From Azolla caroliniana (taxonomy: Eukaryota; Plantae; Polypodiophyta): a DNA stretch of 64,000 nucleotides. The translations under genes and the position numbers were made by a program. Of the stretch, positions 1-64,000 are shown in pieces. Location: positions 24,676,001-24,740,000 of the forward strand of contig JBHGNT010000001.1 in the NCBI GenBank assembly GCA_043228905.1, written 5' to 3'. Each line of letters opens with the position of its first letter. Position 1 is the stretch's first letter. The notes beneath the pieces are model-generated. The model was given only the letters and a program-made list of their open reading frames with translations, made no database searches and was not told the DNA's origin.

Positions 1-397
1 ACTAAACTTACTACTAAGTGATTTTGTATATTTTCTTTTCATATTCAATATTCCATAGGAAACAAATACATAGAAAACCGTGTGCACAAAACCATGGTTT
101 AGCCCATGGTTTTAGCTCGTGGTTTTAGCCCATGGTTTTGCATGGAGAGACCAATAAAAACCTCCAGTTGGGCTTGTGTAAGGGGGGAAGCTATGTATTG
201 AAGGAAGAAACTTCTAATAAAGATATAGTCATCTTATTGGTGATGTATTTTGTCTCTAAAAATTGAAGTCAAGGGTTCAATCTCTCTATCTATCTTAAAT
301 ACTTTCTCTCTTATGCTAGTACAAACTTCAAATCCTTTTGGTCTAGGACCCTGGTGGTTCCGCTTCATTTCATGAACACACAAGGATTTCCTCGACA
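1..397 (+). mobile_element. Partial 5' LTR (R/U5 end, ...TTCCTCGACA) of a Ty3/gypsy-like element
   Basis: Ends in CGACA, followed after 7 nt by a PBS-like motif and a gag-like ORF. Positions ~320-397 align by eye with the reverse complement of 63778-63860 (caaactt.gaatcctt..ggtctag.accctgg.ggttccgc.tcat). Confidence 0.7.
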
Positions 398-404
398 TCT
401 TTCT

Positions 405-421
405 TGGTGAATCCAACATGA
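405..421 (+). promoter_or_regulatory. Primer binding site, tRNA-Trp-like
   Basis: TGGTGAATCCAACATGA versus the complement of the plant tRNA-Trp 3' end as recalled (TGGTGAACCCGACGTGA): 14/17 matches, all three mismatches are transitions. Confidence 0.6.
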
Positions 422-478
422 AGAAGCGGTAGGAAGGATCAAGATGAGGACTGACCGATACTTGGAGAGTTCGAAAGA

Positions 479-3400
479 ATGATGGTAATCCTTGAACAAA
501 TGATGAGATCTCGAGACAATGATGCGAGCATGGAGAAGGTTGTCGACCGTGTCATGGAGGTCAAGGGTCAATTTGATGGAAGGAACATTACGAAGTTCCT
601 TGATGCATACAAAAGGGAGATGAATCAGAGGGACGTGTCTGAAACACGTCAAATCTCAAGTTTCAAGAGAGTTGTCGCCAACAATGTCCAAAGGCGGGTC
701 ATCGAGCTTCAAGAAGGGAAGACAACATGGTCCGAGTTTGAGAAAGCAATATTAGCGAAGTTTGCGACGGAAGATTTGTCGAGGATGACTCGACATGTCT
801 TGATGAAGTGGATAGAGAAGAAAAATAAGACGATGAGCGCCTCGAGGGTATACGACGAGTTCAGCCAGATGTTTAGTCATCTCCCCGCCACAGACCAAGT
901 GGAAGGAACATTACGAAGTTCCTTGATGCATACAAAAGGGAGATGAATTAGAGGGACATTGTCGTGAAGTTATTGCTTCACGATGTCAAAACAATGTCAA
1001 AAATCTATAGAAAGAAATTTCCTATATGGAGCTTGTGACGAGAAGCATGTGCAAATTTTCGGTTTGTGAATTGGAGTTTAGGAGCCCAAGATACAAGCCT
1101 CGGAAGGATTAATGTTACTCGGGACACAAATATAATTATGTCAAAAGGGGGAGTCAAAATTAAATGAGGTCTATTTCTATAATTTCTCAAATGTACAACT
1201 ACAAAATCGAATTTGTAGAATCAATAAATAAAATAATATTAAATATAAATAAATAAATAAAAATAAAGATAAAGATAAAAAAATATCAACCGCCTCAAGA
1301 GGGTGGTAGGGCGGTTGACCACCCTATATAAGCCACGCCCATGGTGGCTAAAGGGGGAAGAAGGGGGAGAAGGGTAATAAGAAGAGAAAGGAAAAGCGAG
1401 TGAAGAAGCTCGCGTGGGTGTGGGATGCAGAGCTCGCCAAGTTAAAGTGGTGTATCTTAGATCCCTCTTTGTAAACAAAAGGTCAAGAGTTTGAATCCTC
1501 TTAGAACAACTTCTTTTGGTAATCAAATTTTGTAATATAAATTTAGTATATATAGAGTGAAAGAGAAAGAAAAATAAATAGAAACCAATTGAAGTGCTTT
1601 ATCTCAAACACTTCTTCTCAAATAGAGTTCATGAGTTCAAGTCTTGCCAAGTAACTTTTGGCAAATAAATATTGTAAGTGGTTGTTTTACAAATAAAATG
1701 CTTTTCGCGACAACGTCACATCTATCTTGCCTTCTCGGCTTCTTGTCATCGCACCATCTGCGATTACGCCTTGTCACCCCAATCATCCCCGAGTCACAGA
1801 ACCCCGGCAGTTGCGACACACAACCACAATCTTCTCGACAACGTGTCTAAAGCACGTAAAATCTCAAGTTTCAAGAGAGTTGCCGCCAACAATGTCCAAA
1901 GGCAGGTCATCGAGCTTCAAGAAGGGAAGACAACATGGTCCGAGTTCAAGAAAGCAATATTAGCAGAGTTTGCGACAGAAAATTTGTTGAGGATGACTGG
2001 ACATGTCTTGATGAAGTGGATAGAGAAGAAAAATAAGACGATGAGCGCCTAGATGTTTAGTCGTCTCCCCGCCACGGACCAAGTGTTGCTTGAGGCGGAC
2101 AAGACTTTGGACTTCCTGAAAGTTGTGGATATGAAGGATAGACGAGAATTGGGGCTCTCCTCGAAGATGATACCCAAGCGAACGGGCTTGTGGCAGACTC
2201 GATTGCGTTGGAGCGAGCGTGCAATAGGCTCGACAAGCGTCATCAATGGGTTGATTACACTGACTTGGCAAGATTGAGCCGGGAGAAAACAAAATAAACA
2301 AAAGTGGTTGAGCCACCCAAACAAAGCAACCCGGACGAAAAGAAGATTGATGATGACATCATTGAAGAACTAGCGACGAAGTTCAAGACGGTCACACTAG
2401 CGAACATGAATTGTTGGGGACCAAAAGGAAAAGAACCCCTTAGATGTGTGTGGGGCGACAACATGAACCACATGAGAAGGGATTGTGTGAGCCTCCGAGA
2501 GGCTATCCGACAAAATATCGTATACATGGATGGCAACATTATCTGCTCAAATGAAACCAGAAGACCCCTACGAGTGAATTTCGGAAGAGGGGGGATGAAG
2601 AAATCTATGGAAGATGTCCATGCAACTCATGTGGATGCGATGCACTATGCTGCATCGGCCGGAATAAGAGTCGGGAAAGGTAAAAATGAAGTTGATAGAA
2701 TGGGAACAAAGTTTTGGTCTTCCATTCTCAAGTGTAAGAAGAAGGGGAAAGTTACTTCGGACGAGGTAAAGCTTGTGGACCAAAATGTGCAAAGTATAAC
2801 TGGATGGTCGGATCCGGTAGATGACAACACCATACTCGCAGAAGTGATGTGTGACAACCACGAGGTGCTCGTGGATGAAAAGAGAAAAAGAATGGAAGAG
2901 CAAGACAACCCATCAAAAAGACATGAAACAAGGAGCACGAAAAAGAAAGAAGATGTGGAAGCAAGTCGAGCTTTACGAATGGAGGATGGAGACTCAAGCC
3001 GGAAAGGAGAGTCGAGCAAACGAGTCGAAGAAACGGTTCGGCCCATGAGGATTGATGTTGAAGACCCCACTCGAAAGACAAGAACTATGCCTACCTATAA
3101 ATAAGCTAAGGTCGGGCATAGAACAAACGACAAAGCTGAAGAAGACTCTCGAGGAACGTGTTCTTGATAGCCATATGACGTTGTCCTTGAGAGAATTGCT
3201 CGGCATTACAAAGGAGTTCCATGATACAATCGTGGACCTTGTAAAGAGAGAAAGGCAATAGTCAGACGAGGAAGAAGAGAAGCCACAAAAAGCAAAATCA
3301 AATGCCATAATGATGGCACAGGATGAAGTCAATGAAGATATGGTGGGCAGCCATTATACTCGGCCTCATTGGGCACGACCGACGACGGAGACGCCAGTAA

Positions 3401-3730
3401 AGTTGGGAGAGAGAAAAGACACATTCGTAGCTTTAGTAGACCATGGGTCTTAGATCAACCTTATGTCGACTGAGGTCTACAAAAAGGGAAGATAGACCAA
3501 AAATATGAATCATGGGTGGAAGATCCGTGTGGCAACGAAAGCTACTGAAGACTTGTATGGTGCATGTCCTAATATCCCCATCACGATTGGTGATGTCGAG
3601 ATAGATCAACATTTTTTTGTTCAAGATTCAACATCCCATCCTATCATTCTTGGGCAACCGTACATAACATCATCCCGGTGCGGCATTTGCTCGAGTAAAG
3701 AGTCTTGAAGGGAAGAAGGTCGTACAGTTC
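479..3730 (+). pseudogene. Decayed Ty3/gypsy-like gag-protease region
   Basis: Gag-like FDGRNITKFL...TWSEFEKAIL, a degenerate zinc knuckle (RCVWGD..NHMRRDC) and an aspartic protease motif ALVDHGS*INLMS near 3430. Many stops and frameshifts, an internal ~323-bp tandem duplication (578-900 repeated from 901), and the 960-1840 insertion. Confidence 0.7.
960..1840 (+). mobile_element. Solo LTR (960-1712) plus an adjoining U5-like fragment (1717-1840), inserted in gag
   Basis: Starts TGTCGTGAAG, with CCCTATATAAG TATA near 1323. Candidate ends TTTTCGCGACA (1712) and CTTCTCGACA (1840) are each followed by ACGT. Left flank is ACAT (956-959). Host gag resumes exactly at 1841. Confidence 0.75.
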
Positions 3731-3804
3731 TTCCTTTCGTGATTAGTTTGCCCTCCATCCCCCAGAGATGCAAGCAAACTCGACCTTTTTCCCCATCCCA
3801 TGAC

Positions 3805-4259
3805 TGTTACGGGCATGACCATCTAATATCCTATGGAGAGAATTTACCGTAGTTTTCTATACACGTGGATAAGTGTGAGGGTTAAACGAGAGTGTAAAGA
3901 AGGGGAGGATTACTTTTAATCCTCGAGATTGAGACAACCCATTAGGTCAAGTGTGAACTTGCCTGGGGGCCTTGGGTATCGCTATAAATAAGAGGCCTAG
4001 CTACCCTCATTTGATGATCCTTTGACTACATCGAGACTTTGCTCTTGTGGTGGGTCAACTCTTGTAGCGAGCGCGCCAGCACCAGGTACGACTCGATGCC
4101 ACGGCGGTGGTATGGGACGCCAATCGAGGCTCGAGTCCGTCTCGATCCCTTCGCTCGGGGGTGGTCGGGTGGATCGGCACCCTTCTTTCTCTTTCTCATT
4201 TCTATCTATCATTAGTTTATCCTTATCTTAAGCTTACTTTAGTACCTAGATCTCTAATA
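3805..4259 (+). repeat. 5' LTR of chromovirus copy A
   Basis: Direct repeat of 15489-15942; followed by the PBS. Confidence 0.95.
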
Positions 4260-4861
4260 TTTGGTATCAAAGCTATGTACTAATGTTTCTTTGTTTGTCT
4301 TTTGTCTTTTGATTGATGGTGATCGATCGATGTGTGGTCGGCCTTGATCCAGACAACAATCAACAAAGAACTTCGGTAACTCTTTCCGTAATTTTTTTTT
4401 CTATTCTCTCTTCTCCCATCTAATCATGTGTTTAGTTTATATGTCATTTTTTTTCATTAAGTCAATGATGTTGTAGTGGTCTTTAATTGATTATCTGAAA
4501 CGTTTACATATGTGCACGAGGTCAATACCTCGTTTGACATATAAATAATATGTGATGAGTGTCGTATGCGTACGAGTTTAATACCTCAATTACATATTAC
4601 ATTCACGAACATATTGTGAAATGCACATAAAATGAAACCAAACCAGCCTAGCTAGCTTCATACTTATCATTCAATATATAGAAGATACAAAGAACCCATT
4701 TTGGGACAGCCTAGCTACACGTGTCCCAAAATGGTGTGCTAAAATGGTGGGCTATAATGGGTGATGTGCTAAACGGGAGTGGCTAAAAGAGTGGTGTGTT
4801 CAAATGCATGCTCTTGCATGAAAGGGACACCACATTTCCCCCCTTAGAAAAACAAGGAGTG

Positions 4862-7800
4862 TTACGCTATGAGAGAAGGAGGGGTGCTAGAAGATAGGCT
4901 TGGGGTAGCATATGGCTTGATACGGGCAACATGGGCTGAGGTGAATCGACCGTTGGAATCGCGTCGGAGTAAGTAAGTCGTGGACTTGATGGCACGAATT
5001 ACGGTGAATGGGCTGATCCACCGGTGCATGAGGGATTCACTGAGACCACGCCGCCGGATCGGGAAGTAAACAAGGACTTTGGTTCCATCAGCATACGTCG
5101 GGGTGATTCGACCCACATCGTAGTGTCGCCTTTGACGTTGTTGTGCGACTTGTAGATTTCGGGAGCTAGCTTGTCGAAGGAGGGGGAGCATTTGTTGGAG
5201 ATAAAGCCCCCAAGTAGCATTATCCATGTTGGCAGGTTTAGAACAGATGTCAATGGACGTTTCTGGTGGGAGCCACGGGTCGCGTCCATAGAGTGCTCGA
5301 AAAGGGCTGATCCGTGTCGACGCTTGTACGGATGTATTGTAGGCATGGGTGACAAAAGGCAAGATTTGATCCCAGGTTTTGTGGCATGGATCGATGTAAG
5401 CGGCAATTTCTTGCTTGAGGGTCTTGTTGAGGCGTTCAGTGAGGCCATTTGTTTGAGGATGGTAAGGGGATGTAAACACTTGTTGGACACCTAGTTGAGT
5501 TGCCACAGCATTGAGGACATCCCCATGGAACTGGCGGCCCTGATCAGATAAGATTTGGATAGGGCAACCATGTTGAAATATTACCTTTTGCAAGAGTTGG
5601 GAGGCAATTGTTGGCGCAGTGACGTCGGGGATGGCAACAATTTCAGCCCATCGTGTGAGGTATTCTGTTATGACAAGGATATACTTGTTGCCCCTAGAGG
5701 TTTCGGGAAAAGGTCCCATGAAATCCCATCCGACCAACTCGAAAGGTGACGTGACGGTGATGGGTTGGAGTGTTCCAGCTGGCTTGCCCCCAGGTTTGAT
5801 GTGTTGACACAAAGCGCATGTTTTGATATAGGTAGAGACTGAGTGTCTCATGTTGGGCCAGTAATACTTGAGACATAATTTTTCAAGAACCTTGTGGAAA
5901 CCCAAGTGGCCCGACAATGGGTGGTCGTGATAAAATTGGAGATACGTTTGTTGTAGGGCATGAGGGATGTAGAGACGAGGCTCGTGATGCGCTTGAATGA
6001 AGAATACCAAGTTATCGCGGAGCATGAACCGTCATTGTGAGGGAAACGGTTGGAGGGAGCACAACTGATGGATTATCTGTTGGATGGCGGGGTCGTGTTG
6101 TTGAAGCGTAACGAGTTGTGGCAATGGTATCGGAAGATCGGATGTCTCAAGGAATTGGACAGCCTCGTAGTCGGCGCGAGAGAGACTATCAGCGACCAAA
6201 TTGGTTGCACCTTTCCGATAGGAGAGGGTAAACTGATACTCTTGAAGTGCCAGCGTCCATCGCAACAAGTGGCCTGGGGGGTGAGGTCGATGGATAAGAG
6301 AAAGCAAGGGTTGGTGGTCGATCTCAACCGTAACCTGTCCACCATGAAGGTATGGATGAAAACACTGGACAGACTAGACAATCGCAAGTAGCTCCTTCTC
6401 AGTGGTTGAGTAGTTGCGTTCAGCCGACGTGAGAGTCCGACTAATGAAGGCGACCGCCTTCTCTTGCCCACAACAATCGGCTTGCAAGAGGACGGCTCCT
6501 AACCCCTGGTTTGATGCGTCTGTCTGCAACGTGAACGGTCGATCAAAGTTAGGATGGGCGAGCAACCCCGATTCCTTGACCATGGTTTTAAGGCGACGAA
6601 AGCTATCTTCACAAGCAGGATCCCAACTGAATGACACGCCTTTCTTCAAGAGTTGGCGAAGGGGAAAAGTGACTAAGGCAAAGTTTGGGATGAAGCGAAA
6701 GGAAAAGGTGATCATGCCCAAAAAATGTTGCAAGGATTTGACTGAAGTGGGGCGAGGGTAGTCGTTGATGGCTGCTACCTTTGCAGGGTCCATACGGATT
6801 CCGTCACCAGAGATGATGAAGCCGAGAAAACGGAGCCTGGTGCTTCCCCATCGACACTTCTTCCATTGGAGCTGCAAGTTATGCTTAGTTATGCAAGCGA
6901 GGACTTCGGCGAGAGCTTGTAGATGGTCCTCCCAAGTGGCCGTGTGGATAAGGATGTCATCGAGATAAACGAGGAGGACACCTTTGTTGATAAGGGCGGA
7001 AAAAATGGAGTTGGCCATGCGTTGGAATGTGCTGCCAGCATCAAACAAGCCGAACAGCATGCGGGTGAATTGGAATAGCCCGCGGCGTGTGCGGAATGCG
7101 GTCTTGTGGGCATCAGAAGGTTTTAGGGGAATTTGCCAATATCCCGAGGCTAAGTCCAAGGAGGTAAAATAACGGGAGCCACCGATTTGATCCAAGAGGT
7201 CGTCCACGCGAGGGAGCGGGTAGAGGTCATGGATAGTCACTTTGTTAAGAGGCCTGAAGTCGATGCAAAAGCGGAAGGTGCCATCATCCTTCTTGATGAG
7301 GTGGGGTTCCGAAACCCAATCGCTGGTGGAAGGAACGATAATACCTTTGGTGAGCATGTCGGTGACGGCCGCATCAATGCGATCGTGGTCGAGAGGGGAA
7401 CGTCGGCGGGTAGCCATGCGGATCGGAGTGGCCTCCCCAGTACGAATGGCATGTTGTACCGGGAAAGAGACAGTAGGAGCATGTGTGGGTTGGAGGGTTA
7501 GTGATGGAAAACGGGCTAATAATTGGCGGATGGAGACCAATCGCTCTTGTGGACTAAGTGCTACCTGAACTTGGCTAAGGTGGGGGCTAGGGGAGCTATC
7601 TTGTAGAAGAGGGATAGGGGAAGCATGTGGGACAAGAAGTTTGTGGGCATCAAAATCAATCACAGCACGGCGCTTGAGGAACCAATCACAACCTAGGGTG
7701 AGGGGGAAGAGTTGGTGGGGCAAGACATAAAAGTGATGTGAGAAGGTGATAGTGCCTAAGGTGAAGGTGCAATGGGCTTGTGTGTGAGAGTGGTAAAGAT

Positions 7801-8032
7801 GTTGGTGATCGCCAAAAAGGACTTGGATGGAAGGAGCAGTGGATGTGGGGAGACCTAACCGGTGTACTAAGGCGGTGCTAATAGAAGATATACTACTACC
7901 AGTGTCTAATAAGATGGTGTGGGTGCAGTGATTAATGGTGGCGAGGGCGGTGCATACCCTCGAACTAGAAGAGGCGGACGCTTGGATGTGGAGGGTTGGC
8001 TCTTCCATCAGCACCCCAGACGTCAGTTTCCT
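4862..8032 (-). pseudogene. pol (PR-RT-RH-INT) of the nested gypsy, with premature stops
   Basis: LLDTGSS protease, YLDD RT, LQTDAS RNase H, HHCC plus D,D(35)E integrase (GWDFMG / ILSDQG / TERLN). No chromodomain. Split into ORFs 6374-8014, 6032-6307 and 4862-6025. Confidence 0.9.
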
Positions 8033-8962
8033 GGAAGCTCAGCCAACGATGCCGCGTCAGCCATAGTTATCTAGACTTGTTGCTTGTGAGATTGTTGTTG
8101 CAATTTCCGGCACTGACGTCGGACATGTCCATAATTGTGGCAGTAGAAACACCTCGGGCGCCCTTGGCTATCGTGATCGGGACAGTTGCGGCGAGCTTGC
8201 AATTGCATGTTTTAGACATCAATGTCCATGGGGGCCGCGCCTTGGTATTGGGCGCGTGAGTCGGTGGCTAATGGATGGGACCAACGAGGTTGGGTGCCAG
8301 ATAATGTACAAACTTCGATTCATTGGGTGATGAGGATGGCGTCTTTGAATGTCTGCGAACCTTGGTCCCGAGCGCGGCGAGTGATGTCGTGGCGCAGACG
8401 AGGCCATAAGAAGAAAAGCTTCATATGCTCGGGCATGGTAGGGTCAGCGCGAATGAGAAGTTGATTGAGGCGAACACCAAATTGGCCCACGGGTTCGTGT
8501 GCTTGTTGTTGCAATGTTTCGAGTTGTTGTAATGCCGTTTGGGCTGAATTTTGATGGGCGAAGTTTTGTACGAGGAGATCCCGAAGGATCACCCAATTCT
8601 CGGTCACGTCGCTTGATTGTTGGACGTACCAGGTGGCGGCGACGTTTTCGAGCAGGGTACGAACTTCCAAAGTTTTGCGCTCGTTGGACCATCGATGGTA
8701 ACTAGAGATCATCTCAAAATGATCCAACCAAGCTAAGACATCCTCGGAAGGCAATCCGGAGAAGGACTTCGGGCGCACCTTGGAATCTGGAGAGGAAGGA
8801 GAGCATAGCTTGATTCGTATGGCTGATTTGAAGCATGACGTTGGAGACGAGTTCCAAGAGCTGCTCCATTTGGAAAGGGGGAGGTCGTGCGTGAGGTTGC
8901 GAGAACTCAGGCTCCATCAGGGTATCGACGTTGGAGGCAGCGGAAGGGAATTGGGATGCCAT
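8023..8962 (-). pseudogene. gag of the nested gypsy
   Basis: PKSFSG..EDVLAWLDHFE capsid motif and CCHC knuckle CFYCHNYGHVRRQC; ends LPGN*. Two in-frame stops and one frameshift. Confidence 0.8.
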
Positions 8963-10558
8963 GAACAATGTAGTAGTGGCTAAAATTTGAGCCCGCTTCT
9001 CCACCAATTATGTGAAATGCACATAAAAGGAAACCAAACCAGCCTAGCTAGCTTCATACTTATCATTCAATATATAAAAGATAGAAAGAACCCATTTTGG
9101 GACGGCCTAGCTACACGTGTCCCAAAATGGTGTGCTAAAAGGGTGGGCTAAAATGGGTGATGTGCTAAACGGGAGTGGCTAAAAGAGTGGTGTGTTCAAA
9201 TGCATGCTCTTGCATGAAAGGGACACCACAATATGTTACGTTTGCGTATGAGTTTAATACCTTGATTTGTTGTAAAGGATATGTGTTTGGTCTCGTATGC
9301 GTAAGAGGTCAATACCTCAATTGCGTATTACGATGATCTCTTATTTGTGGATGTTTTGTGTGCGTAGAGGTATATACCTCGATTATGTATCTCAATCACA
9401 TCATTTGTGTCTATTTAATATAATGATATGTTTAATATAGGCATATGTGGTCAGGTATATACGTATTTGATCGTATATATGTGATAAGTAAACATATGTG
9501 TATATTCGTTATTACGTGATTATATCGAAAGTTGTCCTTGTCGGGAAAAGGATGTTGGTAGCCGTCCTCACATTTTTGTGAGAATGGCGTTGTCACCATC
9601 CCTTTTTCAACAATTTTTTATTGTTGATGACCTCGATTTCGTTACATAAAGAAACGATTATAGCCATAATGATGTTGAGTACGTAGGGCTTGACCCACTT
9701 CAAGTGAGGTCGCTCCAATGACACACGTATCCAACATCCCTCCCTCGTTACATGGATACGATGCCACCATGAGCTCGTTCTTACGAGAGGCATTCGTAAT
9801 GACGTGACCATGTGATGGGCCACGTGGGCCTACTACGAAACGAGGGCTCATTTGGCTTGACCATTAGGTTGCCCTTTGGCATATGCCATCGTAATTACGA
9901 GACTTGAGGTTAGGTAACGTACCAACATAGTTTTGGTAAATGAGGGTGAAATAAGGACCCTTGACATATATGTTCTTTTAAAAAAAACATATATGATCAA
10001 ATGCCTCGCATATCTCTTATACGCATCAAACATTAAGAATTTGAGAAGACCTACTTACTTGGTTGGCTCAAGTGTCTAATGTATTTGTTCTCGAGGTCTC
10101 GAGTTCAAATATGACCAAGACCATACAATATCCTTGATACATATGACTATTAACACATGTTTAGACTTAAGGTCTAAGTGCACCTCGGGGTCCTCATAAT
10201 AGGACTTAAAGAGCCGAAACCACATATGTGGGCAAAGAAACATAGTTTATTCTTAACATTTTTTTCGTGTATAAACTACTCATGACGCGAACATACATGG
10301 TTGAGCCTCGGGGAGCCGCCATGAAAAAATCGATATAGAGATCAAGGAAAGACATTAAATTGTCACCCCCATGGTTTTTAAAACACCTTTGTGTTACCAT
10401 AGTAACCTGATCTTGAACCTCATCTCATACGTCTAGAGGGGTATAGACGTGAGATCATGATATCGATTAATGTTTGCCCATGATATGTTTACATCACGAC
10501 ATGATGTTATGACTATCTCTCTAACCTTATCCTATTTCTTTTCCAGAAATAATCTTTA

Positions 10559-13500
10559 ATGGCTAAAATTAACGACCCGATGTCATCCGCTCAAGCGGAA
10601 GGAACTCAAGGGAATCCTCCTAGACAAATATCCACTGAGATGTATTTGGCACAAATAAGCCAATACCTTAGTTTCACCGCTCAACAAATGACCGAACTTC
10701 GGCAATCTCAGAGTGCTCTTGAGGCACGTGTCATTAGTCTACAACGTGAGACTAATAGACCTTATGAGCGACAAGGTGAACCATCATTTGTCGTTAAGCC
10801 ATTTACGGGAGACAAAAAGGAAAGAACCGAAGAAGCAATCTGCACATGGCTGGGACGATGTGAGTCTCATTTTGAGCTCTATCCCACGCCAGATAGTACG
10901 AAGATTGCATATGTCGACCGAGAACTCGGGGGTAAGGCCGCCGCCTGGTGGCGTGGGCTCCGTACTATGGGGAAATTGCCCGATACCTGGACAGATTTTG
11001 TCACGGTGTCGCGAAAATACGACGAGGATACGCGAACTTGAGGCAGGACCCCGGGGCCTCCGACCGAAGGATAATCACATGTGTGCGTTTATATTTTTAA
11101 CAATTAACAGAAAGAAGAAATTTAATCATTTTCATTAACAAAGGAAAAAGAAATTACAATATGTCCCAAGATTGGGATTTAGAAGTTTTAGGTTTACTAA
11201 GATTAATAGAAAAGAAAAAAATTAGGGGTTTTGAGAGATATCGCTTCCGTAGGGAAGATTAGGATTAGGTTATATGAGTATTATGGCTTCCGTAGGGAAT
11301 GTTTTTTCTTTTCTATTAATCTTAGTAAACCTAAAACTTCTAAATCCCAATCTTGGGACATATTGTAATTTCTTTTTCCTTTGTTAATGAAAATTATTAA
11401 ATTTCTTCTTTCTGTTAATTGTTAAAAATATAAACGCACACATGTGATTATCCTTCGGTCGGAGGCCCCGGGGTCCTGCCTCAAGTTCGCGTATCCTCGT
11501 CGTATTTTCGCGACAACGGTTTTTAAGGGCCAATTTTTGCAACCTCCCTCTCGAACCGAGGCAGCACAAGCTTTAATGAACCTCTCTAGCAAGAAATTTT
11601 CCTCGCTAGAAGACTATGTTCACCATGCTAGAACCCAAATCCAAAAATCAGGTCTAGAAGGGGACAATTGGTTGATAGCTTGTTTTGTCAATGGCATCCC
11701 CAATTCGGACTATCACTGGATATTGCATGATAAGGATCCAAAATCCTTCGAAGAGGCCATTAAAATAGTTCTTCACTATCAACGCACTTCAAAGAAGGAC
11801 CACAACAAACCCAACGAAGCGCCCGGGACTAAGCAGTCGCAATTTGTTGGGAAACGCAAGACACCCAACGAATTCCTAGATCACGATTGTAAGCGACAAC
11901 ATCCTTTTTGCGTATTCTGGAAAAAGAAGGGTCACACAAAAGAGCAATGTTGAAAGCTCCAACGAAAAGAGCACGATAGCAAACCTAAAGCTTCAGACCA
12001 TAAAGGTCAGATTCCTAATGTCCTTCTGGTCTATACACATCATTTAAGTAATTGTCAATGTTCTTTCCCTCACTATGTATTGGGTCCCAATGATTTACTA
12101 CATGCAAACGAGTATATCAATGGATCTCCTGTACAATTTTTATTTGATTCGGGAAGCTCACACAATTTTGTGAATGATCGTTTGGTTCAGATATGGGGAA
12201 TCCAACCCACCGTAAGTGATCACACCTACACGGTGCACTTGGCTGATGGAAGAGTACAATACATCAACAGGGCGATTCATTCATTAGGAATTTCTATTGA
12301 TACTTATATAGAGGAAGTAGACTTCCATGTAATGAATCTTTGTACCACCGATGTAATACTGGGTTATCCTTGGTTTTATAATAAAAACTCTTCTTTATTT
12401 ATTTATTGGGTTCGCCATTCCATTTCTTTTGTACTGAACGATTGTACACATTTTATTCAATGTATCAAAAAACAATCCCTCTCGATTGTTTCCTTGTGTT
12501 CATCAAAATCCGAGTTGTCTTGTTCTACGTTATTTTATTGTGTACTTGATCCGGACATTCACGTTTACAATATCAATAACGTCCCGGTTCAATTAACATA
12601 TTTTGAACAACAACTTGATGAAATCTTAAATTATTTTCATGATGTTTTTCCAAGTGAACTACCTAATGGGTTACCTCCTAAACGTAATATAGACCATCGT
12701 ATAGATATTGTACCTGGTGTTGCACCAATAAGTATACCTCCATATCGCTTAAGTCGATCCGAAGAAGATAAGGTATCTAAGCAACTCAAGGACTATTTAC
12801 GAATGGGTTATATACGTTATAGTAAATCTCCATGGGGTGCACCAGTTCTCTTGGTAAAAAAGAAAGAGGGCACATGGTGTATGTGTATTAATTACCGACG
12901 CTTGAATAAAGTGACAATCAAGAATTCGTACCCATTGCCCCGGGCTGACGATCTAATTGACCGTCTCCAGGGAGCTCGGTATTTTACGAAACTTGAATTC
13001 CGTATTGGCTACCATCAAATACGAATAAGTGAGGACGATGTTCCTAAAACGGCATTTCGTACGCGTTATGGCCATTACGAGTTTTTGGTTATGCCTTTTG
13101 GTTTGACCAATGCTCCAGCTACTTTTCAACAAGAAATGAATGACATTTTCCGAGAACAACTTGGAAAATTTGTCGTTATTTTCTTGGATGATATTTTAGT
13201 TTATAGCCATACATTAAAAGAACATGCTAGACATGTCCGCTTCATTTTACAAACATTGCGTGACAAACAGTTTTATGCGAAGATCTCAAAATGTGAGTTC
13301 TTCAAGAAATCAATTACTTATCTAGGACATCTCATAACCAAACGAGGAGTTGAAATTGATCCTTCTCGCATTGAGAAAATCAAGTTTTGGCCCACTCTTC
13401 GGAATATTCGAGAAGTTCGATCATTCCTTGGTTTTGTCGGGTTTTTGCAAAAGTCTCTTCGTAATTACTCCCAATTGACGACGCCATTTACTGATCTTTT

Positions 13501-15502
13501 AAAAGGTCAAACGTGTAAGTCTACAAAACCTATTGTGTGGAATGCTACACTAGACCTCGCCTTTAAGGAACTCAAGGACCTGGTTTGCAAGGCTCCTTCA
13601 CTTCTTTTACCTGATCCTTCAAAACCTTTTGAGGTTGAAACCGATGCAAGCAATTATGCTATAGGTGTTGTCTTGTATCAAGATGGTAAACCAATAGCAT
13701 TCGAGAGTAAGAAACTTGATTCTGCTCAATGTCGGTATACCGTTCAAGAAAAGGAATTATTTTCAGTTATACATGCGCTCAAAACATGGCACCATTATCT
13801 TTATGGAAATCTCTTTGTGGTAACTACGGACCACGAGTCCTTGAAATATTTTTGTGACCAACAAGACCTGAAAGGTCGTAAGGCACGATGGGTTGATCTC
13901 ATCAAGGACTTTGATTTTTCCATACGATATCGTAAAGATTCCATGAACACTGTCGTTGATGCACTAAGTCGCATCCGTGAAGTTAACATGCTTAGCTTCA
14001 CAGAAATAACATCAGATCTTTATGATCACCTTCGAGGAAAGTATCATGATGACAGTTATTTTGCAAAATACTGGGCAAGAGTTGAGTCTGGAACAGACAC
14101 CACCACATCCTCGAAGGAATACTTCCACATTGCTAACGGTTTGCTCTACCGTAATGGGAGGGTTTGTGTTCCAGATTTACCCGAGGTCAAAAAGAGGATT
14201 CTTTTTTAATGACATGATGCACCCTCAACCGGGCACCCTAGAATACATCGTACACTCGTTCTCATCTCCACTCAATTTTATTGGCCTAAGATGCGTCTTG
14301 ACATACATAGCTATGTGATTAAATGTCACCAGTGTCAAGTTAACAAAGCCGAGCGACTTAAAGCCGTAGGACTTTTACATCCCTTGGACATTCCCAATAA
14401 TAAGTGGGAAAGTATATCCATGGATTTTATTGTTAGCCTTCCTCGCACCCAAAAAGGTCATGATGCCATCTGGGTTGTCGTTGATCGACTAACTAAAATG
14501 GCCAGATTTATTGCTACTAAAACCACAGTTACATCTCCTGAATTGGCTTACCAATTCGTTGACAAATTATTTCATTTTTATGGGTTACCGATGGATATCG
14601 TGAGTGATCGAGATCCAAAGTTTACTAGTGACTTCTAGATGCAAGTCTTTAAGAAGTTAGAAACTACGTTGAGCATGAGCTCCACGGATCATCCTCAATC
14701 CGATGGACAGACAGAACGAGTAAATCAAATTATTGAGGACATGCTTCGAGCATACGTTGGTGCAAAATCAACAAAATGGGAACGTTATCTCCCAATTTTG
14801 GAGTTTGCTTATAACAGCTCCAAGCATACGTCGACGGGATATAGTCCTTTTATGTTGATGTATGGTTTTCAGCCACGAGCTCCGATTGATGTTAATATAC
14901 ATCATGATGAGTTACGAAGTGCGCAAAACTTTCTTCGGGATATGCAAGATATGTTGCATATTGCACGAGATAATATAAAAACAGCTCAAGATAGAACGCG
15001 TTTTATGTCGATCATCATAGGCAACCTCGTGTATTCAACCCTGGACAGAAGGTATTTTTACGTGTACCTCACAATTCTAAGACATTGTCTACGGGGTAAG
15101 TGCGCTAAGTTAGCCCCACGGTTTTGTGAACCTTTTACAGTCCTCAAATGCATTGGGTCATCAGCCTATTGTCTCGCTCTTCCCGATGGTTTTGGAATTC
15201 ATCCAGTCTTCCATGTGAGTCATCTAAAAGAACTTCTAGGTTTTGGTGACAACATAGTTACAACTGAAACTCTGGTTACTTCTGAAGATTTATCTTCGAA
15301 ACCACATGTACCAGAAAGAATTCTCGATGTTAAAACAAAAAAGTTACGTACTAAAGAAATCCGAGAATTTAAAATTAAATGGATGGACAAATCTATCAAA
15401 GATGCCACATGGGAACGCGAGAATACTCTAAGAACAAACTTCCCTAACTTTCCATTGCAAGAGTGCAATGTTTTAAAGAAGGGGAGTATGTTACGGGCAT
15501 GA
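10559..15502 (+). pseudogene. gag-pol of chromovirus A (interrupted by the foldback insertion and stops)
   Basis: Collinear with the intact ORF at 53127-57560: FDSGS, FLDD, ETDAS, integrase and C-terminal chromodomain. Confidence 0.92.
11007..11515. mobile_element. 509-bp foldback (MITE-like) element, 214-bp inverted arms, TGT...ACA ends, 4-bp TSD ACGG
   Basis: Arms 11007-11220 and 11302-11515 are reverse complements (one mismatch seen) around an 81-bp spacer. ACGG at 11003-11006 and 11516-11519. Removing the element restores gag [10 protein letters not shown]. Confidence 0.95.
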
Positions 15503-15942
15503 CCATCTAATATCCCGTGGTGAGAATTTACCGTAGTTTTCTATACACGTGGATAAGTGTGAGGGTTAAACGAGAGTGTAAAGAAGGGGAGGATTACTTT
15601 TAATCCTCGGGATTGAGACAACCCATTAGGTCAAGTGTGAACTTGCCTGGGGGCTTGGGTATCGCTATAAATAAGAGGCCTACCTACCCTCATTTGATGA
15701 TCTTTTGACTACATCGAGACTCTGCTCTTGTGGTGGGTCAACTCTTGTAGTGAGCGCGCCAGCACCAGGTACGACTCGACGCCACGGCGGTAGTATGGGA
15801 CGCCGATCGAGGCTCGAGTCCATCTCGATCCCTTCGCTCGAGGGTGGTCGGGTGGATCGGCACCCTTCTTTCTCTTTCTCCTTTCTATTTATCATTAGTT
15901 TATCCTTATCTTAAGCTTACTTTAGTACCTAGATCTCTAATA
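15489..15942 (+). repeat. 3' LTR of chromovirus copy A
   Basis: Direct repeat of 3805-4259; preceded by the PPT and followed by TSD ATGAC. Confidence 0.95.
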
Positions 15943-16599
15943 ATGACATTGGTCGTGGCACAAATTTCGGCAGCTCAAACACAATTACCCAACCTCCAAT
16001 TGAACTGGCGTCTGTTTCCACGGCCTTTAACAACCTCCCCAACAAAAGTTGGGATGATCCGCGTCATGCGATGTTTCCTACATACATACTTAGACATCCC
16101 TTACCCAGACATCCAAGCCAACATTCGTTTTGAGCAACTCCTATTGGTGCTCCTTGACTCCCCCCTTACAAGTCCCCAACATTCAAACAGTGTCGCCACC
16201 TGTCGTAGGGTCTCACATTTGATTTGAATAAAGACCCAACGTGCCATCAGGTGGTCAGCCTTTAGACCTGTGTCAACATACTCCCTGCCCATCCCAGTTT
16301 ACATTAGTTCTGGTAGGACCCCCCCTCTTCCTTCGTCGGCTAAAACACATCCACATGGCTCATTGGTCCCAATAAGGACTTCTTCAAAACAACCGATCAA
16401 ATGCAAGAAATTCGCGTACTTCCCCTCAACATCTGACGTCTTCGCCACCACCTTCACCATCGACCACCCCCCGATGAACCCGCAACTTTGGCCGCCGACA
16501 AACCCGCTGACGCCCCGAGCTCACCACCCACGGTGCACCCAAGAGTGTGTACTCATTAGGTTGGGGGGGATCTTAAGCTCTTGGATTTTACCACGATCA

Positions 16600-21094: not shown

Positions 21095-22018
21095 AGGAAG
21101 AGGATTTGGGGTTGGGGTTTATGATTAGGATTTGAAATTAGGGTTGGGGTTTGGCATTTAGGGTTAAGGGACATTGGCTTAATCCCTAATCACTAGACCG
21201 TAAAAGGAATTGAAAAATATACTCATCTACACCTTCTATCCTTTACTATGTTAAATAGTTATTTTTCCATTCATCCACTTATTCTCATAGTTAATTAAAC
21301 AAAAAAAAATTAATTAACACAACAAAGGAAGAGGATTTGGGGTTGGGGTTTATGATTAGGATTTGAAATTAGGGTTGGGGTTTGGCATTTAGGGTTAAGG
21401 GACATTGGCTTAATCCCTAATCACTAGACCGTAAAAGGAATTGAAAAATATACTCATCTACACCTTCTATCCTTTACTATGTTAAATAGTTATTTTTCCA
21501 TTCATCCACTTATTCTCATAGTTAATTAAACAAAAAAAAATTAATTAACACAACAAAGGAAGAGGATTTGGGGTTGGGGTTTATGATTAGGATTTGAAAT
21601 TAGGGTTGGGGTTTGGCATTTAGGGTTAAGGGACATTGGCTTAATCCCTAATCACTAGACCGTAAAAGGAATTGAAAAATATACTCATCTACACCTTCTA
21701 TCCTTTACTATGTTAAATAGTTATTTTTCCATTCATCCACTTATTCTCATAGTTAATTAAACAAAAAAAAATTAATTAACACAACAAAGGAAGAGGATTT
21801 GGGGTTGGGGTTTATGATTAGGATTTGAAATTAGGGTTGGGGTTTGGCATTTAGGGTTAAGGGACATTGGCTTAATCCCTAATCACTAGACCGTAAAAGG
21901 AATTGAAAAATATACTCATCTACACCTTCTATCCTTTACTATGTTAAATAGTTATTTTTCCATTCATCCACTTATTCTCATAGTTAATTAAACAAAAAAA
22001 AATTAATTAACACAACAA
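21095..22018. repeat. Tandem array, 4 x 231 bp
   Basis: Units start at 21095, 21326, 21557 and 21788 (AGGAAGAGGATTTGGGG...) and appear identical by eye. Confidence 0.95.
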
Positions 22019-22452
22019 AATATAGAAAGTTAGGATTCATGATTTTCTTGGAAAGTATCTAACAAGTTGGATTTGGATCAACTACGAACAATGGGTTTTA
22101 AAACCTAGTTAATTAACATAGCATTTAAAAAAAGCTAAAAATTGAGAGAAGAAAGAGAGGAAGAACAAGACAAATTGCCAAATTTGTTGGTAACTTTATA
22201 AGGACAAATGCATTTCACCTCATAGAGAGGCTCCTCGATGCCAAGTTAACTAAGAACCAAGTTATTATATATGTATTTAAAAAGTATAAAATGGAGAAAA
22301 ATGAGAGCATTGAGTATTAAAAATGAGAGCATTGAAGGGTAGTTTTATCCATTAGTTTGGTAAAATCAAATCTTTAGTAACTAGTTGATAACTATCATGT
22401 TCACACCATTGGAGCATATGTAATTATTCATAAGAAGAAGAGTGAGTGCAAT

Positions 22453-41742: not shown

Positions 41743-44700
41743 CCATATGCATATACATGTACATGTATATTTCTAGCTGAGTAAAGTTTCAGTTTTCACT
41801 TACATTCTCTGTTTAATTAATGCAGTTTCGTCCTTGCCAAACCCTTGGATCGAGTCTGAACGGGAGTTTTTGAGGATGCCGTCGATGCTCTTGGGAAAGA
41901 AAGTGAGGTCTCTTCACAGTTTTGAGACAAAAAATGCTCTGGTGGAAGATCCAATCACTGCTGAGAAAGAAAGGAAGGTTATGAACCCATGGTCAGCTGA
42001 GGAAAGAAAAACATTCCTGGAAAAATATGCTCTGCTTGGTAAAGATTTCCGGAAGATCGCATCTTTCCTCAAGTACAAGGCTGTAGCCGATTGTATTGAA
42101 TTTTACTATAGGAACCAAAAGGTGGAAGAATTTCAGAAGATCCATAGAAGGCATCAACTGAAGAAAAGGAGAGACTCTAGAGCTAGTGGGTTATATCTTG
42201 CTACCACAACTTCAGCTAGCACTAGGCATCGTGAGGCGAACCGAGCTTGTATGGAAGGGCTGACGTTAGTGGCGGCTGCTGCGGCTGCGATTTCTGCCCC
42301 TAAGAGTACAGGTAAAGAATGTTTATTCTACCATTTCTGTGGTGTAGTTCTCCTGATTTTGTAGAGATTGAGTAAAGTATCTAATGAAGAAAAAAATTGG
42401 GCATAATGCCGAAATACCCTTAAAAGTTCCTCTTTATATCCTGAAGGCCCCTACGTTTTTGATATTTCTTCAGATGCCCATCAACCCTGAAACAACATTT
42501 ATATGTTTTGTCGTATGGTCAATTCACTACATTTTCCTTATTTAAGCAATTACATGGTCAATTCATCCCCTTTTCTCTCTCATAGGCGTTTTGAGAATTA
42601 TGAAAATCAGGAGCATTTGGGAAGAAGAGAAAACTCTGAAATACTATTTTTTGTAAATTATGAAGTGGTTTTCTTGCTTTTTATGGATTAGGATTCCTTT
42701 TTTTCATAAAGGTTCAGTGACTGTATGATTCTGAAAAAAGTTGATCTTGTGTTATCATTTTTATTGCTATATCTACAGCATTACGAAAGTGTCCTAATCA
42801 TGAAGATAATGTTGTATTCCATGCAGCTATGAATTCTTCTACTATTAGCACAAAGGGGTGTCGAGATAGGTATTCCGGAAGGCCCAGAAACTCTACCACT
42901 ACGCCGCCGGTGAAAGTTAGCAATAAAGAGCAGGGAGTGAAGGGATCTCACTTGTATGGCCGACAGCAGCAGCCACCACTATCTCAAGACGAGTCAGATT
43001 CACACTGGACTGATGGGGAAAGGTTGTTGTTCATGGAAGCTCTAGCTATGTTCGGAAAGGACTTCAACAGTATCTGTCTCCATGTTGGCACAAAGAATAC
43101 ACGGCAGTGTAAATCCTTTTTCAGCAAAGCCCGTAGCCGCCTTGGTCTAGATCAAGTAGTTGAAAGACATAAGACAGTTACACAGAGTGCAAGGGAAAAT
43201 TGCGAGGCTTTCACCCATATGACAGTGGATATGAAACCTCAAATATTTGAGGATATGAAACCTCAACACCCTGGCCTAGATCAAGCAGTTGAAAGCCATA
43301 AGATGGTTATACAGAACACGAGGGAAAATTGCAAAGTTTCCATGAACATTGCAGTGGATATGAAGCCTCAAGTATTTGAGGATATAAAAATTAAAACATT
43401 CAAAAATGCAAAGCGTCACAATTCTGAGGATGTGAAATGTCAAGTAATGGAGAATGTGAAATTTCAAATGATTGAGGATATCAAAGTTGAATCGTCTGTT
43501 GAGAGTCGTAAATATGATTTTTTGAAACAAAATATGATTAACACTACTGTAGTGGGTGCAAGTTCTTCTGGATTTATAACAGAGGTACAAAGTAAAATAT
43601 CTGATGAAGCTCATTCAGATCCTCAAGCTGCCGGTATTGTAAATGCCCTTACTTCTCCTGAAGATGTGGGTGATGCCAATGATGCGCACATGACTTCAAA
43701 TCCTGTCTTTGGGGCTATGTCTGAAAATCTAAATGAAGTGGCAAGCTCAGATGGTGGTGGCGAAGACAGTTTAACAACTGGATCCTTACATCACGGCGAG
43801 GTGATTGAGAAGGTGGTGGTGGATAGGGTGGAAAATAATCTCATGGCAACAGGTTTAACTGGTGACAAAACACAACAGCTTGTACATGAGAATGTGGAAG
43901 ATATTTCAATGTTGAATGTTGATAATGAGGGGTCTCATTCAACACCCTTTGGGTGCAATCTAAAGGCTATGCGACTGTTGCAGAAGGAAACAGTGCCTGT
44001 TTTAAAGAACCCCAATCCAAAAGAAGTTAAAATCCGTAGGGAGCCTACATCGTGGACTCAAGAGGAGAAAGCAAAGTTTAATGATGTTCTCAAGGTGCAT
44101 GGTAGGAACTGGGATCGGCTCCATGAGAGTCTTCCATCCAAATCTCTGACACAGATCAAAACATATTTTCAGAATTCAAAAGCTAAATTGGGCTTAGGTC
44201 CAGGGTCGGAAGGATCTTTGAATGGAAGTGGAAAGGTTGCAATGCCAAGGAAAAGGAAGATTGATGATTCAGATTCTAGTAATAATCAAGGGTCAGGAGG
44301 GCAAAGTCCTCTATCAAAGGCATCTGGGCAGTCTGATGGCTCAAGTTTAATCGCCACACCAAACATTTTGCCTGCTTCTGGAGGTGTAACAGTGAGCAAT
44401 ATGTTAAATACTGAATCTATGGCCTATGTAAGCTTCATTGCTAGAAGCGCACAGAAAGAAGATTCTCCAAATAATCAGAACATGGCTTTTAATCCGGTAG
44501 TAGCACTGAATTCTTTGTTCAATACTGGCGTTTTTGCATCACCCAACGCTCAGCAATCTCAGCCAACAGATTTAGTTCCCCCTCCACAAGTAATCATAGC
44601 TCCAGCTGCAATTAAGCAGGAACAGGGGATTGTTAGCAGGATGAATCAAGGTGTCTCTCTACCCATGGTTCAGCTCTTGCATACACCAACAGTAGTACAC

Positions 44701-52670: not shown

Positions 52671-52675
52671 GTGTT

Positions 52676-53140
52676 TATTAGAGATTAGGTACTAAAGTAA
52701 GCATAAAATAAGGATATATCAATGATAGATCTAGAAAGAATAGAGAGAAAAGAGAGAAAGAAGGGTGCCGATCCACCCGACCACCCCCGAGCGAAGGGAT
52801 CGAGACGGACTCGAGCCTCGATCGGCGTCCCATACCACCGCCTTGGCGTCGAGTCGTACCTGGACGATAGCGCGCTTGCTACAAGAGTCGTTCCACTCAC
52901 GGACAGAGTCTCGACGTAGTCAATGCATGCCCAAATGAGGGTAGCTAGGCCTCTTATTTATAGTAATTCTCAAGGCCCCCAGCCATGTTCACACTTGGCC
53001 TCATGGGTTGTCTCAATCCCGAGGATTAAAAGTAATCCTCCCCTTCTTTACACTCTTTGTTTAACCCTCACACTTATCCACGTGTATAGAATACTACGAC
53101 AATTCTCACCACGGGATATTATATGGTCATGCCCGTAACA
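52676..53140 (-). repeat. 3' LTR of chromovirus copy B
   Basis: Near-identical to 59259-59723. Confidence 0.97.
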
Positions 53141-59258: not shown

Positions 59259-59723
59259 TATTAGAGATTAGGTACTAAAGTAAGCATAAAATAAGGATAT
59301 ATCAATGATAGATCTAGAAAGAATAGAGAGAAAAGAGAGAAAGAAGGGTGCCGATCCACCCGACCACCCCCGAGCGAAGGGATCGAGACGGACTCGAGCC
59401 TCGATCGGCGTCCCATACCACCGCCTTGGCGTCGAGTCGTACCTGGACGATAGCGTGCTTGCTACAAGAGTCGTTCCACTCACGGACAGAGTCTCGACGT
59501 AGTCAATGCATGCCCAAATGAGGGTAGCTAGGCCTCTTATTTATAGTAATTCTCAAGGCCCCCAGCCATGTTCACACTTGGCCTCATGGGTTGTCTCAAT
59601 CCCGAGGATTAAAAGTAATCCTCCCCTTCTTTACACTCTTTGTTTAACCCTCACACTTATCCACGTGTATAGAATACTACGACAATTCTCACCACGGGAT
59701 ATTATATGGTCATGCCCGTAACA
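59259..59723 (-). repeat. 5' LTR of chromovirus copy B
   Basis: Followed on the minus strand by TT and the Met PBS. Confidence 0.97.
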
Positions 59724-63777: not shown

Positions 63778-64000
63778 TGTCGTGAAAAATCCGTCACTAC
63801 GTGCGGATCATGAGGCGGAACCGCCAGGGTTCTAGACCGGAAGGATTCGAAGTTTGCACTAGATTTAGCGAGAAAGGATGTAAGATAGATTGACAAAGAG
63901 AGAGAGATTGAGATTAAGATTCCAATTTTGAAATAGATTGAGAAAGATTGAAATGGAGAGAGATTAAGATTGAACTCTTGACTTTAGACTTTAGAGTCTA
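63778..64000 (-). mobile_element. U5 end of an LTR of the same family as 1-397, inserted in the integrase fragment
   Basis: TGTCGTGAAAAATCC terminus; its reverse complement aligns with ~320-397. It interrupts the (A)LWAY coding sequence. Confidence 0.75.

What the first reader, a model, noticed from the sequence alone, without database searches (positions are those of the whole stretch)
11003..11519. Foldback element made of two inverted LTR U5 ends, inserted with an integrase-type 4-bp TSD
Seen: a 509-bp insertion with 214-bp arms (one mismatch), an 81-bp spacer holding GCTTCCGTAGGGAA twice, TGTCGCGAAAA termini and a perfect ACGG TSD; the empty site is confirmed by chromovirus copy B. Seen: the arm end (ATCCTTCGGTCGGAGGCCCCGGGGTCCTGCCTCA...TTTTCGCGACA) resembles the 3' end of a genuine 5' LTR here (ATCCTTTTGGTCTAGGACCCTGGTGGTTCCGCTTCA...TTCCTCGACA at ~332-397, followed by PBS and gag) and the terminus at 63778. 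Established: Ginger/GingerRoot DNA transposons have gypsy-integrase-like transposases, TGT...ACA TIRs and 4-bp TSDs such as CCGG/CCGT (ACGG is the reverse complement of CCGT). Inference: this is a U5-U5 unit, either a snap-back minus-strand strong-stop cDNA (left arm plus spacer = R-U5) integrated via two U5 att ends, or a multi-copy non-autonomous TIR family borrowing a retrotransposon integrase. Either would be a possible intermediate between LTR elements and Ginger-type DNA transposons. It should also give a long hairpin RNA (siRNA source) against the parent LTR family.
Basis: partly seen in the sequence, partly recalled or inferred. Interest (0 to 1): 0.85.

Follow-up and report, generated by a model that had tools for sequence, protein, structure and literature searches.

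The report
Retrotransposon insertion with two tail ends
This 509-base palindrome in a likely fern genome is two copies of the tail end of an ordinary retrotransposon joined back to back under one insertion scar, likely a one-off copying accident that the element's own integrase still inserted, and predicted to be unable to move again.

Summary
In detail: 509 bp, 214-bp arms with one mismatch, 81-bp spacer, ACGG target duplication, empty site present. The arms are the 3' (U5) end of a real LTR. In 8 of 14 metagenome loci the same terminus is followed by a primer-binding site, and two loci hold gag plus whole RT-RNaseH-integrase ORFs. The spacer continues the left arm along that LTR. The parent fits the Phygy gypsy lineage (4-bp NCGN duplication, about 8 kb; phylogeny untested), so the Ginger-like TSD needs no Ginger. 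Arm plus spacer (295 nt) stops about 700-800 nt short of the predicted TATA box, so it is not a full strong-stop cDNA. No listed contig crosses the foldback junction in 4 runs, and 0 of 7 informative loci fold back: likely a one-off. Best reading: two truncated tRNA-primed minus-strand starts were joined head to head and inserted through two U5 ends. It has no promoter, PBS or gene; hairpin RNA is unshown. It has the outline of a non-autonomous Ginger1 element without being one. The scan noted similar inverted-end insertions before, in this genome and in others (unchecked notes).

The parts
11003..11006 (+). Left target-site duplication ACGG (NCGN type)
   Evidence: empty site
11007..11220 (-). 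Left arm: last 214 nt of a Phygy-like LTR (U5 end, att site ...CGACA) facing outward to the left
   Evidence: 79-86% identity over 175-207 nt to LTR 3' ends of L001, L002, L003, L005, L008, L010, L011, L013
11221..11301 (-). Spacer: the next 81 nt of the same LTR upstream of the left arm, part of a tandem array; each GCTTCCGTAGGGAA unit is a small hairpin
   Evidence: (83.5% over 85 nt to L005), (arm-spacer join in LTR orientation at summed depth 57-676)
11298..11302 (.). Foldback junction: AAT shared by spacer end and arm start, plus one extra G; lies inside U5, not at an LTR terminus
   Evidence: weak, because ATT occurs 13 times in the first 290 nt
11302..11515 (+). Right arm: last 214 nt of the same LTR (U5 end) facing outward to the right
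11516..11519 (+). Right target-site duplication ACGG
9231..15943 (+). Host: chromovirus (chromodomain gypsy) copy A internal region and 3' LTR; the insertion interrupts gag. Its 5' LTR is 3805-4259, cut off by a nested element at 4615-9230
1..3733 (+). Degenerate Phygy-like relative: LTR 3' end at 397, decayed PBS, gag-protease 48-74% identical to the parent's; a relative, not the direct parent
63778..64000 (-). 3' end of an LTR of a related family, inserted in another element's integrase-like sequence

Best explanation
The element is two copies of the 3' (U5) end of a Phygy-like gypsy LTR, 295 and 214 nt long, joined head to head and flanked by one 4-bp duplication; it likely arose once, when a truncated tRNA-primed minus-strand cDNA switched template onto a minus strand during reverse transcription, and the parent's integrase likely inserted it through its two U5 ends. 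Shown: the LTR origin of arms and spacer, the RT-encoding parent, the NCGN duplication, the empty site, and the absence of PBS, PPT, TATA region and ORF. Inferred: (1) reverse transcriptase stopped about 295 nt into the LTR, at the foot of a small hairpin in a tandem array; (2) its 3' end primed on a minus strand about 215 nt from the U5 end, either its own (snap-back) or that of the second packaged genome (mutual priming), which give the same product; (3) filling in gave a short duplex with a normal U5 att site at each end; (4) integrase processed and joined both ends. Predicted: it cannot be copied again (no promoter, no PBS) or excised (retroviral-type integrases are not known to excise; recalled).
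For: 8 of 14 loci carry the identical 21-nt terminus followed by TCTT and a PBS. L009 and L010 have gag plus RT, RNase H and integrase ORFs. Arm plus spacer align end to end with 7 of 7 LTRs long enough to test (227-234 matches of 295). 6 of 7 host-side flanks in the loci are NCGN, and one is ACGG itself. Phygy: 4-bp NCGN TSD in 100% of 186 elements (PMC6317226 supplement). Both ends stop exactly at ...CGACA, as integrase joining requires. The junction lies inside U5, with 3 nt of microhomology, right after a hairpin unit. The arms differ at 1 of 214 sites against 16 of 455 columns for the host's LTRs, consistent with both arms being made at one recent time. One-off: no listed contig bridges the junction in 4 of 4 runs; in X2 and X10 the depth figures leave no cover at 11300-11301; the ordinary LTR join has depth 57-676. 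0 of 7 informative loci fold back.
Against: The junction cannot tell reverse transcriptase from host repair: 3-nt microhomology plus one extra base fits both, and ATT occurs 13 times in the arm and spacer. DNA folding of the 293-295-nt minus strand does not pair its 3' end at the observed priming site. Contig depth is not copy number, contigs drop rare variants, and only 32 of 215 pieces were listed, so a small family is not excluded. The transcription start is predicted from a TATA motif, not mapped. The loci come from diverged subfamilies (79-86%), not from the exact parent.
Confidence: 0.55

Rival explanations
1. Two separate cDNA molecules each gave their U5 end to one integration event. 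Their other ends were then joined by host repair, or the resulting long palindrome lost its centre, leaving arms of 295 and 214 nt. Still integrase-made and one-off.
For: It explains exact U5 termini, one TSD and unequal arms. The junction (3-nt microhomology, one extra base) suits end joining. Centre deletion of long palindromes is established (recalled).
Against: It needs loss of most of both roughly 8-kb donors down to a few hundred bases. Both breakpoints fall 215-295 nt from the U5 end, where an early stop of minus-strand synthesis would put them.
Confidence: 0.2
2. An ordinary solo LTR was inserted first. A later replication template switch replaced its U3 side with an inverted copy of U5, using the short terminal inverted repeat.
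For: The parent LTR starts TGTCGTG and ends CGCGACA, giving 5-7 nt of terminal microhomology. It keeps the TSD without any odd integration. A solo-LTR-like relative lies at 960-1712.
Against: It needs two switches, one exactly at the terminus. No U3 remnant is left.
Confidence: 0.12
3. It is one copy of a small mobile MITE-like family derived from U5 ends and moved by an integrase or a Ginger-like transposase.
For: TIR length, TGTNR ends and ACGG TSD match Ginger1. Arm sequences are very abundant in public runs.
Against: The abundance is explained by ordinary LTRs. No second junction was seen in the window, in 7 informative loci or in 4 runs. None of the 120 listed (of 193) integrase-sized homologues carries the OTU or Ulp1 domain of Ginger1 transposases.
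Confidence: 0.09
4. The palindrome is an assembly artefact.
For: No contig that spans the junction was listed in 4 runs. The window's own reads could not be examined.
Against: A fold-back chimera would mirror the host flank, but the right flank continues the host collinearly. The arms differ at one site, and there is an exact NCGN duplication typical of the parent lineage.
Confidence: 0.04

Closest known systems
Phygy non-chromovirus Ty3/gypsy lineage (Neumann et al. 2019, PMC6317226; passages and one supplement row read)
   Same: The parent has NCGN flanks, a tRNA-type PBS, about 8.2-8.4 kb estimated length, a compact gag-pol and no chromodomain. The element's ends and TSD are those of this parent.
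   Different: The element has two U5 ends in inverted orientation, no U3, PBS, PPT or ORF. Phygy was defined from Physcomitrella; here the host is a likely fern and named homologues are from Riccia and Ceratopteris. Phylogeny not tested.
Ginger1 DNA transposons (Bao et al. 2010, PMC2836005; parts 1-3 of 5 read)
   Same: TIR within 40-270 bp, TGTNR termini, 4-bp TSD of the CCGG/CCGT/ACGG set. The paper itself proposes that Ginger1 TIRs came from two LTRs in opposite orientation.
   Different: No transposase, no copies seen, TIRs traceable to an RT-encoding parent. Ginger1 was reported from four animal species in that paper. Bao's route is a second LTR inserted upstream of an integrase gene; here both ends came in under one TSD and enclose no gene.
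GingerRoot (Cerbin et al. 2019, PMC6839031; part 2 of 7 read)
   Same: Plant element with TIRs and an integrase-related enzyme.
   Different: 6-bp TSD, TA..TA ends in 72 of 77 elements, 3.9-12.9 kb: none met.
Solo LTRs and truncated LTRs of gypsy elements (established knowledge)
   Same: LTR-only remnant with integrase-type TSD.
   Different: A solo LTR is U3-R-U5 in one orientation, made by recombination; this is U5-U5 inverted.
DIRS elements with inverted terminal repeats (search listings only; details recalled)
   Same: Retroelement-derived unit with inverted ends.
   Different: DIRS use a tyrosine recombinase and are self-copying; this has a DDE-integrase TSD and is an LTR fragment.

Membership tests
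Phygy (parent element) | 4-bp NCGN target duplication | tested here: met
   Element TSD ACGG; 6 of 7 host-side flanks in L002-L012 are NCGN. No whole parent with both flanks was seen. Of 3 ends of related families in the window only 1 is NCGN.
Phygy (parent element) | PBS for tRNA-Trp (81% of members) | tested here: inconclusive
   An 18-nt PBS follows the LTR in 8 of 14 loci (L001 to its contig end). Its complement is a CCA-ending small RNA listed in PMC5846777 as miR894, mapped to gypsy repeats, in a table of PBS complements (passages). That it is tRNA-Trp is recalled; ARAGORN found no tRNA in L015 or the window.
Phygy (parent element) | Length 7.7-10 kb, polyprotein spans nearly the whole internal part, no chromodomain | tested here: met
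   L009 internal region 28-5833 plus two LTRs of 1181-1317 bp gives about 8.2-8.4 kb (estimate); Pfam shows RT, RNase H, integrase and no chromodomain.
Phygy (parent element) | Placement in the Phygy clade on RT/RH/INT trees | not tested
   No REXdb reference sequences were on hand; no Physcomitrium entry among the 120 listed hits.
Ginger1 | TIR 40-270 bp, TGTNR ends, 4-bp CCGG/CCGT/ACGG TSD | tested here: met
   214 bp, TGTCG, ACGG.
Ginger1 | Integrase-like transposase without RT, between the same TIRs, in the element or a partner | tested here: not met
   No ORF inside. The ends belong to RT-encoding elements. No OTU or Ulp1 fusion among 120 listed of 193 hits. No whole genome to search.
GingerRoot | 6-bp TSD and TA..TA ends | tested here: not met
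   4-bp TSD, TG..CA.
MITE / non-autonomous TIR family | Many copies of one structure with different TSDs | tested here: inconclusive
   0 further copies in the window, in 7 informative loci and in the listed pieces of 4 runs; contigs can drop rare junctions, so high copy is unlikely but low copy is open.
Complete minus-strand strong-stop cDNA (R-U5) | The copied part ends at the transcription start | tested here: not met
   The 295-nt part ends about 670-800 nt downstream of the conserved TATA box and inside a repeat array; the start site is predicted, not mapped.
Autointegration product | An LTR terminus at the internal junction | tested here: not met
   Both sides of the junction are internal U5 sequence.

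The most novel reading that the evidence does not exclude
Head-to-head joining of two U5 ends is a recurring by-product of LTR reverse transcription that yields TIR elements in one step. In a lineage whose integrase already makes Ginger1-type NCGN duplications, a longer version, switched after copying the integrase gene, would be a ready-made Ginger1 ancestor. This element would be the gene-less end of that series, and may have begun to multiply.
Probability: 0.08. Interest if true: 0.75.

Novelty: new variant of a known kind. Interest (0 to 1): 0.32.

Why it matters
It is a clean natural record that a plant gypsy integrase likely accepts two U5 ends, and that an LTR can turn into a TIR-flanked unit under a single TSD, the structural step proposed for the origin of Ginger1. 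It also warns that MITE and Ginger finders would misfile such remnants. As a single, gene-less, likely immobile copy it does not show a new kind of element. The match between Phygy's NCGN target and Ginger1's CCGG/CCGT/ACGG target is a cheap, testable lead.

Tried and rejected
No whole genome is held, so no genome-wide BLAST. The terminus was not found in viral contigs or genome contigs, and no relative of the parent pol was found in viral contigs. The sequence look-up in earlier findings gave nothing. Ylt1-like fungal lineage as parent: a recalled lead; passages in PMC5014426 and PMC2864245 gave no usable TSD data, and it was dropped when Phygy fitted. Confirming tRNA-Trp from a tRNA gene failed. 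Equilibrium snap-back at the observed site was not supported by folding. GingerRoot, autointegration and a complete strong-stop product were rejected (see membership tests). Literature: five searches for inverted-LTR, U5-U5, snap-back or LTR-derived foldback insertions listed 0, 16 of 21, 2, 6 and 1 papers. By title and abstract none describes this structure; only PMC12789967 was opened, and its 'U5-U5' is RNA pairing. The library lacks most subscription papers, so older retrovirus work on aberrant proviruses may be missed.

Full report
Observation. The element spans 11007-11515 (509 bp) between two ACGG copies. Its arms are 214 bp with one mismatch and its spacer is 81 bp with GCTTCCGTAGGGAA twice. 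It interrupts gag of a chromovirus, copy A. The flanks are collinear with copy B, which has a single copy of the target. Contigs of public runs show joints that skip exactly 513 bases, that is element plus one TSD (X1 depth 22, X2 depth 49). The insertion and the duplication are therefore real features of the assembly. The host is a non-flowering plant, likely a fern: the best named homologues of the neighbouring host gene are from Ceratopteris (inference). No whole genome is held.

BLASTN of the element against the window found no further copy.

Origin of the arms. An exact 21-nt terminus search of metagenome contigs gave 14 loci. In 8 of 14 the terminus is followed by TCTT and a primer-binding site; in the other 6 by host DNA. 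L009 and L010 carry a gag-protease ORF and an overlapping RT-RNase H-integrase ORF, and L011 carries the same as far as its contig reaches. Three whole LTRs are 1181, 1201 and 1317 bp; they start TGTCGTGTG and end TTTTCGCGACA. A purine-rich tract precedes the 3' LTRs seen. The arms match the LTR 3' ends at 79-86% over 175-207 nt, and the spacer matches the next stretch of the L005 LTR at 83.5% over 85 nt. Left arm plus spacer align end to end with all 7 LTRs long enough to test (227-234 matches of 295). In public runs, pieces identical to the spacer over 40 nt have depth 1415 (X1) and 880 (X5), and the arm-spacer join in LTR orientation has depth 57-676, against about 6-25 for long diverged pieces (depth is not copy number). 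So the structure is the last 295 nt of the LTR reversed, then the last 214 nt forward.

The parent. Neumann et al. 2019 (PMC6317226; passages and a supplement row) give for Phygy a 4-bp NCGN TSD in 100% of 186 elements, a tRNA-Trp PBS in 81% and a length of 7.7-10 kb. Here 6 of 7 host-side flanks in the loci are NCGN, one being ACGG, the estimated length is 8.2-8.4 kb, and there is no chromodomain. The PBS complement is a CCA-ending small RNA listed as miR894 in a table of PBS complements in PMC5846777; that it is tRNA-Trp is my recall. Named pol homologues are from Riccia (best 60% identity) and named integrase homologues from Riccia and Ceratopteris. I call the parent Phygy-like; I did not test its phylogeny. 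The ACGG duplication is thus the parent integrase's ordinary signature and needs no Ginger transposase.

Not a full strong-stop product. A TATATA box after a conserved ATCCCA(C/T)ATAGAT motif is invariant in 6 of 6 aligned LTR starts. It lies 968, 989 and 1096 nt from the 3' end in L011, L003 and L005. The foldback holds only the last 295 nt and breaks inside a tandem array: L005 has four copies of the unit, and a contig of X10 runs on past the spacer with the next repeat. If the start site lies just after the TATA box, the fragment is a third or less of R-U5. The start site is predicted, not mapped.

Copy number. Laid on 11226-11345, none of the 32 listed pieces (of 215; the longest are kept) crosses 11301/11302 in X1, X2, X5 or X10. 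In X2 the depth falls from 945.1 to 472.5, exactly half, and in X10 the 27.7 is half of one contig that ends at 11299; both leave no cover at 11300-11301. X1 and X5 cannot be decomposed. None of the 7 loci with more than 300 nt inward shows an inverted end. This argues against a high-copy family. It does not prove single copy, because contigs drop rare junctions and the runs may be other individuals. It also means no read-level confirmation of the junction was obtained. An artefact is unlikely because the right flank continues the host instead of mirroring the left flank, the arms differ at one site, and the TSD fits the parent.

Mechanism. Both ends are exact U5 att sites under one lineage-typical TSD, which points to integrase (about 0.75 over the two integrase routes). 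The junction has AAT on both sides plus one extra G and sits right after a GCTTCCGTAGGGAA unit that folds as a small hairpin. I favour a reverse-transcription origin (0.55): a minus strand stopped 295 nt in and primed on a minus strand about 215 nt from the end, its own or its partner's, giving a duplex with two tRNA-primed U5 ends. Against this, the microhomology is weak (13 ATT sites) and folding does not place the 3' end at that site. Two-molecule integration with later joining or centre deletion (0.2) and conversion of a solo LTR (0.12) remain. Autointegration is excluded, because no LTR terminus lies at the junction. The arms differ by 0.5% (95% interval 0.01-2.6%) against 3.5% for the host's LTRs, so the event is likely younger than the host insertion.

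Fate and RNA. The unit lacks TATA region, PBS, PPT and ORF, so it is predicted to be immobile. A transcript would fold into a 214-bp stem (-386.6 kcal/mol), which follows trivially from the arms. It would need read-through from the host element, whose 5' LTR is cut off by a nested insertion. Nothing here shows expression or silencing.

Comparison. In outline it matches a non-autonomous Ginger1 element (TIR 40-270 bp, TGTNR, CCGG/CCGT/ACGG; PMC2836005), and that paper suggests Ginger1 TIRs came from two opposite LTRs. It fails membership: no transposase, no copies seen, an RT-encoding parent, and no OTU or Ulp1 fusion among 120 listed of 193 integrase-sized homologues. GingerRoot does not fit (6-bp TSD, TA..TA). 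Five literature searches showed no description of such insertions, judged from listings. Earlier notes of this scan report inverted-end LTR insertions twice in this genome and four times in others; they are unchecked and are not counted as support, but they lower the surprise.

Verdict. A real, well-explained U5-U5 insertion from a Phygy-like gypsy, likely one-off and dead. New variant of a known kind; interest 0.32. The bold reading, a one-step route from LTR ends to Ginger1-like TIR elements in a lineage with the same target signature, is not excluded (0.08).

Noticed in passing
run X2 laid on window 11278 (table 7): One contig joins an LTR end plus 16 nt of PBS directly to internal U5 sequence about 270 nt from the LTR end, in the same repeat array as the foldback junction: possibly a mis-jumped plus-strand strong-stop product, or an internal deletion. 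One contig only.
   Followed up: no
window 960-1712: 753-bp solo-LTR-like unit (TGTCGTGAAG...TTTTCGCGACA, TATA-like motif inside, flanks ACAT/ACGT) inserted in gag of the Phygy-like element. A second ...CTCGACA end at 1840 and a duplication of 633-901 at 1841-2085 follow.
   Followed up: partly
L013, L014, L003, L007: Shorter elements share the parent's LTR end and PBS but hold one long ORF (620-650 aa in L003, L013, L014; L007 is cut short); no Pfam hit for the two scanned and no pol seen: likely non-autonomous partners.
   Followed up: partly
L009 3-2261 and 2234-5773; L011 2227-4542 and 4515-6767: gag-protease and pol ORFs overlap by about 28 nt in different frames, suggesting a -1 frameshift.
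   Followed up: no
window 4615-9230: Nested gypsy on the minus strand with 220-bp LTRs (214 of 220 identical) between chromovirus copy A's 5' LTR and gag.
   Followed up: partly
window 52675-59723: Chromovirus copy B with a 1510-codon open frame and LTRs 464 of 465 identical: very recent.
   Followed up: partly
window 61121-62293: Four tandem copies of 293 bp (94%) just after the RT region of a copia element.
   Followed up: no
window 21095-22019: Four perfect tandem copies of 231 bp.
   Followed up: no
window 41777-46155: Host Myb/SANT-domain gene (PF00249, DUF7952) with very long open frames; best named homologues in Ceratopteris.
   Followed up: partly
PMC6317226 and PMC2836005: Phygy's NCGN 4-bp target equals Ginger1's CCGG/CCGT/ACGG set, and the parent integrase has a GPY motif. 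I did not test whether the two integrases are sisters.
   Followed up: no
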